Positions 31,012 to 31,575 of a stretch of 64,000 bases of DNA are shown piece by piece. The position numbers and the translations under genes were made by a program. This stretch comes from Escherichia phage Ptacy1532, in the sequence record PQ863255.1. One strand, 5' to 3'. Under the pieces are notes generated by a model that was not told the DNA's origin, ran no database searches, and was given only the letters and a program-made list of their open reading frames with translations. Each line of letters begins with the position of its first letter. Within the stretch, counting starts at the first letter, position 1.

Positions 31012-31575
31012 TTAGTAAGACACATCACCACTTGAGTGGGACATGTTGCTCTTGACGAAGTAGCAATACTTGCCAAGACCTTCATTAATTTCTTGAAGCA
31101 TACTCTGGTCAACTGGATAAGTGGCTAAATCGCCATCAAACTCATCCATCTTCTCAATAATACACATCAAGGTCATGCACATATCAGAGAGCATACCGTC
31201 CATATCCAGATCAGCATTACCCTCTGAGAACCAAGCATGGGAGAGGTAGTTAGCTGCTGTAGCATCCACCTTAACACAGTGGTATCGCATACGCTCAGCA
31301 ATACGATCTCCTACTTGTCGTGCGTAATCTTCCAGCTCATCAAACATACCATGAACACCCTGAAATCCTGCACCAGAGACATTCCAGTGGTAGTTCTTAG
31401 CTTTGATATGCAAGAGTTCCATGTTAGCTTGTAAGCAGCTTAGGATGTGTTCTAGGCTGTTTCCACTAATCATACCCTGCATAGTTTCAAGGCGAGAGAT
31501 TGAAAGCTCAGACCGGTCTAACATGTTATATTCTGCACGACCAATCTCAGGTAAATCAAAGACATTCTTATGCAT
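31012..31575 (-). CDS. Dps/ferritin-like protein
   Basis: Track ORF trimmed to the ATG with GGAGAAAA RBS; NYHWNVSGAGFQGVHGMFDELEDYARQVGDRIAERM resembles the Dps ferroxidase-site region. Confidence 0.6.
   Translation of the reverse strand: MHKNVFDLPEIGRAEYNMLDRSELSISRLETMQGMISGNSLEHILSCLQANMELLHIKAKNYHWNVSGAGFQGVHGMFDELEDYARQVGDRIAERMRYHCVKVDATAANYLSHAWFSEGNADLDMDGMLSDMCMTLMCIIEKMDEFDGDLATYPVDQSMLQEINEGLGKYCYFVKSNMSHSSGDVSY

What the first reader, a model, noticed from the sequence alone, without database searches (positions are those of the whole stretch)
31012..31575. Dps/ferritin-like gene in a lytic phage genome
The ORF contains NYHWNVSGAGFQGVHGMFDELEDYARQVGDRIAERM, which resembles the Dps ferroxidase-centre region. 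Dps-type iron-sequestering and DNA-protecting proteins are unusual in small lytic phages. It could protect replicating phage DNA from oxidative damage or manipulate host iron and redox state.
Basis: partly seen in the sequence, partly recalled or inferred. Interest (0 to 1): 0.5.

Follow-up and report, generated by a model that had tools for sequence, protein, structure and literature searches.

The report
Known Dps mini-ferritin gene of phiEco32-like phages
The ORF is a real, intact Dps-type iron-oxidising cage protein, but it is the orthologue of phiEco32 gp67, which has been annotated as a Dps-family member since that genome was published, so the gene is ordinary and only its untested role in infection remains open.

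Summary
Window 31012..31575 (minus strand) encodes a 187-aa protein that carries the quoted peptide at residues 61-96. It matches Pfam Ferritin above the curated cut-off, PHROG 3636 (2.6e-55) and solved Dps structures. A confident AlphaFold core superposes on Dps chains (TM 0.8-0.9). All four ferroxidase ligands (H63, H75, D90, E94 = E. coli H51, H63, D78, E82) are invariant.

The window is a Kuravirus, a phiEco32-like phage of about 77 kb. The gene is the orthologue of phiEco32 gp67, whose RefSeq record reads "member of the Dps family". A 2014 paper listed it as a core gene of the prolate (C3) podophages. It is therefore already known.

New here:
- The protein is acidic and has no Lys/Arg-rich tail, so the usual "DNA-binding protein" label is doubtful, and the "integrase" label in many records is wrong.
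- It is unusually rich in methionine.
- It is translationally coupled to a conserved partner, gp68. Both genes sit directly behind P68, a tested phage-sigma middle promoter, and a hairpin follows.
- dN/dS is about 0.06.

Most likely role: detoxifying peroxide and Fe(II) during replication, after the phage has shut off host sigma70 and sigmaS transcription. No phage Dps has been tested experimentally.

The parts
31012..31575 (-). Dps-family mini-ferritin gene, orthologue of phiEco32 gp67. It encodes 187 aa: a Dps core at residues 45-178 and a clade-specific acidic N-terminal extension at 1-44.
   Evidence: Family matches. AlphaFold model and Foldseek hits. Ligands H63/H75/D90/E94. 97.9% identity to phiEco32 gp67. 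dN/dS 0.06-0.07.
31568..31897 (-). gp68 orthologue (109 aa, PHROG 10984, function unknown). Its stop codon overlaps the Dps start codon by 8 nt (ATGCATAA), which suggests translational coupling. It is the conserved upstream partner of the Dps gene.
   Evidence: A homologue lies directly upstream of Dps in Privateer, Aeromonas phage LAh_6 and two metagenomic relatives. It is more conserved than Dps itself. The structure model is poor, with only weak resemblance to SH3-like barrels.
31925..31975 (-). Middle promoter P68. The gp36 (phage sigma) -10-like element AATGTA is at 31945..31940, inside cAAATGTATATAg.
   Evidence: The sequence differs from phiEco32 upstream of gene 68 at only two positions. 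P68 of phiEco32 is transcribed by RNAP-gp36 and activated by gp79 in vitro (PMC12276001). The consensus tAATGTATAtA and a sigma70 promoter upstream of CDS68 are described for SU10 (PMC4281155).
30976..31004 (-). GC-rich hairpin (11 bp stem, 7-nt loop) 8 nt after the Dps stop codon. It is terminator-like or an mRNA 3'-end stabiliser, and it closes off the gp68-Dps pair.
   Evidence: scan. (fold, -18.5 kcal/mol, z = -2.5). (identical in phiEco32 and WFI101126). Its function was not tested.
30316..30597 (-). Thioredoxin gene. It is a conserved neighbour of the Dps gene across the lineage (context, not part of the Dps gene).
   Evidence: Synteny.
29198..29854 (-). ThyX flavin-dependent thymidylate synthase gene, a conserved neighbour (context).
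   Evidence: Synteny.
37877..38125 (-). gp79 orthologue. This transcription factor shuts off host sigma70 and sigmaS transcription and activates gp36 promoters, including P68 (context for the mechanism).
   Evidence: identical to WFI101126 gp084, which is identical to phi32_79. Function from PMC12276001.
17588..18232 (-). gp36 orthologue, the phage sigma factor that reads P68 (context).
   Evidence: 213 of 214 residues identical to WFI101126 gp033, which is annotated as identical to the phiEco32 ECF sigma factor.

Best explanation
The gene encodes a genuine Dps-type mini-ferritin. By homology it should form a 12-subunit hollow cage. Its ferroxidase sites lie between subunits and are built from H63 and H75 of one subunit and D90 and E94 of its partner. 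These sites oxidise Fe(II), preferentially with H2O2, and deposit Fe(III) inside the cage. That removes both reagents of Fenton chemistry. The gene is the second in a gp68-Dps pair placed directly behind P68, the first middle promoter, which is read by the phage sigma factor gp36 with gp79. It is therefore made together with the replication and nucleotide-synthesis enzymes. Because gp79 shuts off host sigma70 and sigmaS transcription, the infected cell can no longer induce its own dps or its peroxide response. The phage supplies its own protector for replicating DNA and for oxidant-sensitive enzymes. It probably acts as a soluble iron and peroxide sink and not by coating DNA, because it is acidic and lacks the Lys/Arg-rich tail that E. 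coli Dps uses to bind DNA. Shown here: family membership, fold, ligand conservation, purifying selection, operon position and promoter identity. Inferred: dodecamer formation, ferroxidase activity, lack of DNA binding and the physiological benefit.
For: Family and fold:
- Pfam, PHROG and solved-structure matches.
- AlphaFold core pLDDT of about 90, with four long helices plus the short BC-loop helix typical of Dps.
- Foldseek top hits are all Dps chains, TM 0.8-0.9, rmsd 1.1-2.5 A.

Active site:
- H63, H75, D90 and E94 align without gaps to E. coli H51, H63, D78 and E82.
- They are invariant in 17 sequences from four phage lineages, bacteria and E. coli. W64 and D79 are nearly invariant.

Selection: dN/dS 0.06-0.07. 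The gene is present in Kuravirus, Suseptimavirus, Grimontviridae and Lahexavirus.

Expression:
- The P68 sequence is conserved.
- P68 is transcribed by RNAP-gp36 and activated by gp79, and gp79 shuts off sigma70- and sigmaS-dependent transcription (PMC12276001).
- The protein was detected by mass spectrometry in SU10 and Privateer preparations.

Context: the gene is always embedded among dCTP deaminase, thioredoxin and ThyX, and in relatives also the anaerobic ribonucleotide reductase NrdD.

No DNA-binding tail: pI 4.7, and residues 1-44 hold 4 K/R against 7 D/E. Every clade member carries a net negative charge.

From my own knowledge, not tested here: host dps is induced through OxyR/sigma70 and through sigmaS. 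Dps prefers H2O2 as oxidant. ThyX has an NADPH-oxidase side reaction that makes H2O2.
Against: - No experiment on any phage Dps was found in the literature searches.
- Oligomeric state and activity cannot be tested with these tools.
- The protein scores far below the NCBIfam equivalog cut-offs for cellular Dps (34.5 bits against 114), so its function may have diverged.
- The conserved 44-residue N-terminal extension, the 8% methionine content and the tightly linked gp68 are not explained by a simple iron and peroxide sink.
- Some Dps proteins bind DNA without basic tails, so DNA binding is not excluded.
- Kuraviruses lack the oxygen-sensitive NrdD that accompanies the gene in relatives.
Confidence: 0.6

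Rival explanations
1. It is a DNA-binding and DNA-condensing protein, as most records annotate it. It would coat replicating or newly made phage DNA, or compact the host nucleoid, and shield it physically. Iron chemistry would be secondary.
For: E. coli Dps and M. smegmatis Dps1 and Dps2, the best structural matches, bind DNA. The gene sits among replication genes. The neighbour gp68 gives weak fold hits to SH3-like barrels (Tudor, PWWP, KOW), some of which bind nucleic acid, so it might serve as a DNA adaptor.
Against: The protein is acidic (pI 4.7). Both termini carry net negative charge and have no Lys/Arg cluster. All clade members carry a net negative charge. The gp68 model is low-confidence (pLDDT 54) and no fold hit reaches E<=0.001. 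All four ferroxidase ligands are invariant, which argues that catalysis is the selected function.
Confidence: 0.15
2. It manages iron supply and is not mainly a protectant. The cage would capture the host's labile iron pool and hold it for iron-dependent enzymes of nucleotide synthesis, or withhold it from host processes.
For: In relatives the gene lies next to or near the anaerobic ribonucleotide reductase NrdD/NrdG and a stand-alone ATP-cone protein. It is always inside the nucleotide-metabolism block.
Against: The window has no NrdD and no ATP-cone homologue, and no iron enzyme was identified next to the gene. An infection is short, which leaves little time for storing and releasing iron. 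This explanation overlaps with the best one and cannot be separated from it by sequence.
Confidence: 0.15
3. It is a virion-associated protein, packaged in or bound to the prolate head. This would be comparable to the ferritin-like cargo of encapsulins, which have HK97-fold shells.
For: The Dps-family protein was detected in CsCl-purified Privateer particles, for which the paper verified ten virion-associated proteins. It was also detected in the SU10 preparation. Foldseek against viral models finds Dps-like domains inside long proteins named prohead protease.
Against: The SU10 proteomic sample also contained DNA polymerase, thioredoxin, PhoH, the sigma factor and gp68, so it was not specific for virions. 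The cryo-EM and mass-spectrometry study of SU10 virions never mentions Dps or gp67, although only major gel bands were analysed. A 9-nm cage could not pass through the portal. By my own inference, an iron-loaded cage made in large amounts from a promoter-proximal gene could co-band with phage in CsCl.
Confidence: 0.05

Closest known systems
phiEco32 gp67 (phi32_67, YP_001671812.1) and SU10 CDS67
   Same: This is the orthologue: 97.9-98.4% amino-acid identity, the same length, the same position between gp68 and gp66, and the same P68 promoter and downstream hairpin. It is already annotated 'member of the Dps family' and described as carrying a DPS domain and as a core gene of C3 phages.
   Different: Nothing of substance. 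In this window an HNH endonuclease gene is inserted further downstream, between the thioredoxin and ThyX genes.
E. coli Dps (host protein)
   Same: Same fold. The ferroxidase ligand pattern H-x11-H-x14-D-x3-E, with Trp after the first His, is identical.
   Different: Only about 19% identity overall, and far below the NCBIfam Dps equivalog cut-off, so it is not a recent capture from the host. It has no Lys-rich N-terminal DNA-binding tail and instead carries a 44-residue acidic extension. It has 8% Met and 5 Cys, against 2.4% Met and 0 Cys in E. coli Dps. It is expressed from a phage-sigma promoter and not through OxyR or sigmaS.
Dps proteins of Gram-positive bacteria: M. smegmatis Dps2, Kineococcus Dps, B. 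anthracis Dlp-2, B. subtilis MrgA
   Same: These are the best sequence and structure matches (E about 3e-9, TM to target 0.8-0.9, 22-27% identity). From my own knowledge, Dlp-1, Dlp-2 and Listeria Dps are iron cages that do not bind DNA, which is the behaviour proposed here.
   Different: They are cellular stress proteins. The phage protein has its own N-terminal extension and clade-specific motifs (KAKNYHWNV, WFxEG, YFVKSN).
Dps-like genes reported in other phages: Lactobacillus plantarum myophages, 'Gratiaviridae' and other gut phages
   Same: These are ferritin-like Dps genes placed near DNA-metabolism genes, and their authors proposed that they raise tolerance to oxidative stress during infection (PMC6669764, PMC8008677).
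   Different: They belong to different phage lineages and are only distantly related (structure-level hits of 16-25% identity). They have also not been tested experimentally.
Ferritin-like cargo proteins of encapsulins
   Same: A ferritin-superfamily protein is associated with an HK97-fold shell. This is relevant only to the virion-cargo rival.
   Different: Encapsulin cargo carries a targeting peptide and is not a Dps dodecamer. There is no evidence here of packaging beyond co-purification.

Membership tests
[quoted passage not shown] | Sequence match to the ferritin-like/Dps profile above a curated threshold | tested here: met
   PF00210 scores 31.1 bits against a gathering score of 24.5, though it covers only residues 55-108. 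PHROG 3636 matches over the full length at 2.6e-55. A profile built from the clade finds 3394 representatives at E<=0.001. The eight lower-ranked ones I scanned match Pfam Ferritin or PHROG 3636. One hit, P0032, is a low-complexity artefact.
[quoted passage not shown] | Four-helix bundle with a short helix in the long B-C loop and no fifth C-terminal helix | tested here: met
   The AlphaFold model has helices at 41-65, 71-98, 107-112 (short), 125-150 and 154-176. The best 50 Foldseek PDB hits are all Dps or Dps-like chains.
[quoted passage not shown] | Inter-subunit ferroxidase centre ligands: two His from one subunit and Asp plus Glu from the two-fold partner (E. coli H51, H63, D78, E82), with the adjacent Trp | tested here: met
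   H63, H75, D90 and E94 align without gaps to the E. coli ligands. They are invariant in alignments A1 and A4, and W64 and D79 are nearly invariant. That the site lies between subunits is inferred from homology.
[quoted passage not shown] | Assembly into a 12-subunit hollow cage with 23 symmetry | not testable with these tools
   Only monomer prediction is available. SEC-MALS, cryo-EM or a multimer prediction is needed.
[quoted passage not shown] | Fe(II) oxidation, preferentially by H2O2, and iron-core formation | not testable with these tools
   This needs a biochemical assay. No published assay of any phage Dps was found.
DNA-binding subset of Dps (E. coli type) | Flexible Lys/Arg-rich N- or C-terminal tail, or a basic surface, that contacts DNA | tested here: not met
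   Residues 1-44 have 4 K/R against 7 D/E. Residues 179-187 have no K/R. The whole protein has pI 4.7 and a net charge of -15. This does not exclude family membership, but it undercuts the label 'DNA-binding protein'.
Orthologue (equivalog) of cellular Dps or DpsA | Score above the NCBIfam equivalog cut-off | tested here: not met
   NF006975 scores 34.5 bits against a cut-off of 114, and NF041388 scores 32.2 against 170. The protein belongs to a divergent, phage-specific clade: only 7 representatives at E<=1e-30 among 1.84 billion proteins.
Integrase (label carried by many GenBank orthologues) | Any tyrosine- or serine-recombinase domain | tested here: not met
   Ferritin is the only Pfam family hit even at E<=10. 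Orthologues labelled 'integrase' are 96-99% identical to this Dps protein. The label is an annotation error that has been copied between records.

The most novel reading that the evidence does not exclude
The Dps cage may be a true component of the virion of prolate (C3) podophages. It would be loaded into or onto the HK97-fold head, perhaps through the clade-specific N-terminal extension or through gp68. That would make the capsid a natural counterpart of an encapsulin with ferritin-like cargo. This reading rests on two observations: the protein was detected in CsCl-purified Privateer particles, and Dps-like domains occur inside proteins named prohead protease in uncultured phages. A milder version is that gp68 and Dps form an obligate two-protein module that tethers a tail-less cage to DNA or to the replisome.
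Probability: 0.05. Interest if true: 0.7.

Novelty: already known. Interest (0 to 1): 0.2.

Why it matters
As an identification it adds little, because the gene has carried a Dps-family note in the phiEco32 reference record and is mentioned in two genome papers.

The open question is functional. A whole lineage of virulent enterobacterial phages, several of them phage-therapy candidates, keeps an intact ferroxidase cage under strong purifying selection. They express it first from the middle promoter, at the stage when the phage silences the host's own stress response. Nobody has tested why. A deletion mutant and a simple ferroxidase assay would show whether control of oxidative and iron stress limits phage yield.

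There are also two practical annotation points. The label 'integrase' on orthologues in many records is false and could wrongly flag these phages as temperate in therapy screening. The label 'DNA-binding protein' is not supported by the sequence.

Tried and rejected
- Longer ORF from the TTG at 31623: rejected. It overlaps gp68, has no ribosome-binding site, and relatives start at the ATG.
- Structure of gp68: the AlphaFold model is poor (pLDDT 54). Foldseek gave only weak hits to Tudor, PWWP and KOW barrels, none at E<=0.001. A profile search of solved structures hit the designed repeat protein Tako8, but only through the sum of seven stretches of about 5 bits each, which is spurious. Pfam and NCBIfam gave nothing.
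- ATP-cone and NrdD, the neighbours of Dps in relatives: no homologue in the window by tblastn.
- P0032, a 1156-aa protein with 20 matches to the profile: a low-complexity artefact that matches unrelated Pfam families with no significant stretch.
- Paper PMC12796354, retrieved for 'Dps' plus 'prohead protease': there 'DPs' means decoration proteins, so it is irrelevant.
- SU10 'virion' proteomics as evidence of packaging: rejected, because many non-structural early and middle proteins were detected in the same sample.
- Recent capture of the host gene: rejected. Identity to E. coli Dps is about 19%, and the gene's GC content of 43% is close to the window's 42%.
- Sigma70 consensus scan: no minus-strand hit upstream of gp68. 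The promoter was instead recognised by its gp36 motif and its identity to phiEco32 P68.

Full report
**1. Observation**

The minus strand carries an ORF from an ATG at 31575 to a TAA at 31014..31012, encoding 187 aa. The mechanical ORF list extends the frame to a TTG at 31623. The ATG is the better start: GGAG lies 9 nt upstream, 14 relatives begin with the aligned M-H-N, and the phiEco32 orthologue is annotated with the same 564 nt. The start overlaps the stop of the upstream gene by 8 nt (ATGCATAA).

**2. What it is**

Sequence matches:
- Pfam gives one family, Ferritin (PF00210): E=2.5e-7, 31.1 bits against a gathering score of 24.5.
- PHROG 3636 matches over the full length at 2.6e-55.
- The best sequence matches among solved structures are all Dps proteins: M. 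smegmatis Dps2, B. subtilis MrgA, B. anthracis Dlp-2 and others, at E about 3e-9 and weaker.

Structure:
- An AlphaFold model built on 15 relatives has a confident core (pLDDT about 85-97 for residues 41-180).
- It shows four long helices plus the short helix in the B-C loop that distinguishes Dps from 24-mer ferritins.
- Foldseek against the PDB returns only Dps or Dps-like chains among its best 50 hits, with TM to target 0.8-0.9 and rmsd down to 1.1 A.

Active site:
- H63, H75, D90 and E94 align without gaps to H51, H63, D78 and E82 of E. coli Dps.
- They are invariant in a 17-sequence alignment that spans Kuravirus-like phages, Privateer, 7-11, Aeromonas phage LAh_6, metagenomic relatives and E. 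coli Dps. W64 and D79 are nearly invariant.

The gene is under strong purifying selection: dN/dS is 0.059 against phiEco32 and 0.070 against SU7. The observation and the family assignment are therefore both confirmed.

**3. Where the window comes from, and what was already known**

The region is 98% identical in DNA to Escherichia phage vB_EcoP_WFI101126 and about 90-93% identical to SU10, NJ01, 172-1 and other Kuravirus genomes of about 77 kb. The protein is 97.9% identical to phiEco32 gp67. The RefSeq record for gp67 reads 'DNA binding protein; member of the Dps family'. The WFI101126 record cites COG0783 Dps.

The SU10 paper lists CDS67 (DPS domain), CDS65 (thioredoxin) and CDS68 among the few middle genes present in all five C3-morphotype phages then sequenced (PMC4281155). 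The Privateer paper notes the Dps-family protein and states that its function has not been verified (PMC7881722). Dps-like genes have also been pointed out in Lactobacillus phages and gut phages.

tblastn finds the protein in 138 of 50,697 phage records. These are the Gordonclarkvirinae, Grimontviridae and Lahexavirus groups plus a few Streptomyces and cyanobacterial phages. The gene is rare among phages in general but is a long-recognised core gene of this lineage. I found no experimental study of any phage Dps.

**4. Features beyond the annotation**

(a) No DNA-binding tail. The protein has pI 4.7 and a net charge of -15. Residues 1-44, a clade-specific extension with conserved MHNNVFDLP and SxxRLExM motifs, hold 4 K/R against 7 D/E. 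The C-terminal nine residues hold no K/R. All relatives examined carry a net negative charge. The common label 'DNA-binding protein' is therefore not supported by sequence. The label 'integrase' on many 96-99% identical orthologues is simply wrong.

(b) Composition. Methionine is 7.5% of residues, not counting the initiator. The mean for 32 other ORFs of the window is 2.4% (sd 0.9, maximum 4.7). There are also 5 Cys, concentrated in helix C (MLSDMCMTLMC). E. coli Dps has 2.4% Met and no Cys. I have no tested explanation for this. Sacrificial oxidation and binding of soft metals are guesses.

(c) A conserved partner, gp68.
- gp68 (31568..31897, PHROG 10984) lies directly upstream with an overlapping or abutting stop and start. 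This holds in this window, in two metagenomic relatives, in Privateer (37% identity) and in LAh_6 (31% identity).
- It evolves more slowly than Dps: 85% and 72% identity where Dps has 56% and 52%.
- Its fold could not be established.

(d) Transcription.
- The 73-nt gap upstream of gp68 contains cAAATGTATATAg and differs from the phiEco32 sequence at only two positions.
- phiEco32 middle and late promoters carry AATGTA centred at -11.5 and are read by RNAP with the phage sigma factor gp36.
- Promoter P68 has been shown in vitro to be transcribed by RNAP-gp36 and activated by gp79. gp79 also shuts off sigma70- and sigmaS-dependent transcription (PMC12276001).
- SU10 additionally has a sigma70 promoter at this position, which marks the boundary between early and middle genes.
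- Orthologues of gp36 and gp79 are present in the window.
- A conserved GC-rich hairpin follows the Dps stop codon.
- gp68 and Dps are thus the first two genes of the middle transcription unit and may be its most strongly expressed ones.

(e) Neighbourhood.
- Across the lineage the gene is embedded in the nucleotide-metabolism block with dCTP deaminase, thioredoxin, ThyX and PhoH.
- In relatives it also lies close to the anaerobic ribonucleotide reductase NrdD, and in LAh_6 to both its subunits.
- In Privateer, 7-11 and LAh_6 a stand-alone ATP-cone protein follows it directly.
- The window has neither NrdD nor an ATP-cone protein.

**5. Mechanism**

The best-supported reading is a catalytically competent Dps cage made at the onset of DNA replication. 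It consumes Fe(II) and H2O2 and so suppresses hydroxyl-radical damage to replicating DNA and to oxidant-sensitive enzymes.

The timing fits. Once gp79 blocks sigma70 and sigmaS transcription, the cell can no longer induce its own dps, which is OxyR/sigma70- and sigmaS-dependent (my own knowledge). A phage-sigma-driven copy would fill that gap. The conserved proximity to ThyX is suggestive, because this flavoenzyme has an H2O2-producing oxidase side reaction (my own knowledge). The same applies to thioredoxin and, in relatives, the oxygen-sensitive NrdD.

What is shown: the family, the fold, the ligands, purifying selection, the operon position and the promoter. What is inferred: the dodecamer, the ferroxidase activity, the absence of DNA binding and the fitness benefit. 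I put 0.6 on this explanation as a whole, and above 0.95 on the protein being a Dps-family member.

**6. Rivals**

- DNA coating (0.15) is weakened by the acidic tails, but it is not excluded, especially if gp68 acts as an adaptor.
- Iron logistics for nucleotide-synthesis enzymes (0.15) fits the relatives that encode NrdD better than it fits this phage.
- Virion cargo (0.05) rests on mass spectrometry of CsCl-purified Privateer particles and on Dps-like domains inside proteins named prohead protease in a viral structure library. Against it, the SU10 sample that contained Dps also contained many non-structural proteins, and the SU10 virion cryo-EM study does not report it. By my inference, an abundant iron-loaded cage could co-band with phage.
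- A decaying relic is excluded by the dN/dS values.

**7. Verdict**

The finding is nevertheless already known at the level at which it was stated, so the interest score is low (0.2).

What remains open is why a whole lineage of virulent phages keeps an intact ferroxidase cage. The unexplained details are its coupled partner gp68, the acidic N-terminal extension and the methionine-rich helix. A deletion mutant and a ferroxidase assay would answer most of this.

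Noticed in passing
window 31971..32180, 32180..32389, 32389..32586 (minus strand): Three tandem paralogous small genes (65-69 aa) all match PHROG 4939 (unknown function) at 1e-25 to 1e-27. They lie head to tail just upstream of the P68 promoter, at the end of the early region.
   Followed up: no
window 29847..30326 (minus strand): An HNH_3 homing-endonuclease ORF (159 aa, GTG start) lies between the ThyX and thioredoxin genes and overlaps both. phiEco32 has no gene at this spot, but SU7 has an HNH gene in the same position. It looks like a mobile insertion.
   Followed up: partly
GenBank orthologues of window 31012..31575 (e.g. IME267, 172-1, ES17, EcoN5, XT32): Many Kuravirus and Suseptimavirus records label this Dps orthologue 'integrase'. 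The protein has no recombinase domain. The copied error could wrongly mark strictly virulent therapy candidates as temperate.
   Followed up: yes
window 31012..31575, residues 128-143 of the protein: The protein is unusually rich in Met and Cys: 7.5% Met against 2.4 +/- 0.9% in 32 other ORFs of the window, plus 5 Cys. The helix C motif is MLSDMCMTLMCIIEKM. M128, M134 and D131 are invariant, and M132 and C133 nearly so, within the clade. This is unexplained.
   Followed up: partly
L002 3398-3694 (Privateer), L003 3411-3710 (7-11), L004 3429-3701 (LAh_6): A stand-alone ATP-cone protein (90-99 aa, PF03477) is encoded directly downstream of the Dps gene in three distant relatives. In one record it is annotated as ribonucleotide reductase or as a transcriptional regulator. 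It is absent from this window.
   Followed up: partly
Proteins P0096, P0132, P0086 and BFVD entries A0A6J7XDU5, A0A6J7WPK9, A0A6J7WIS1: Dps domains occur in longer phage proteins. One 777-aa protein has two Dps domains. One 406-aa protein has Dps plus a C-terminal DUF6321 that is shared with the C-termini of many large phage proteins. Several proteins named 'prohead protease' show a Dps-like fold match. This hints that ferritin-like domains may be delivered into capsids in some phages.
   Followed up: partly
window 31568..31897 against L006 3679-4008 and L008 3243-3590: gp68, which has no known function, is more conserved than the Dps gene it precedes: 85% and 72% amino-acid identity where Dps has 56% and 52%. 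It was also detected by mass spectrometry in SU10.
   Followed up: partly
window 30316..30597, 37206..37625 and 31012..31575: The phage carries several redox-related accessory genes: thioredoxin, a gamma-glutamyl cyclotransferase-like gene (by position, the orthologue of phi32_77) and Dps. Whether they act together is unknown.
   Followed up: no
window 30771..30950 and 30591..30761 (minus strand): Two small conserved genes lie between the Dps hairpin and the thioredoxin gene. One encodes a 59-aa protein that looks like a two-pass membrane protein (PHROG 9296). The other encodes a 56-aa protein (PHROG 19504). Neither has a known function.
   Followed up: no
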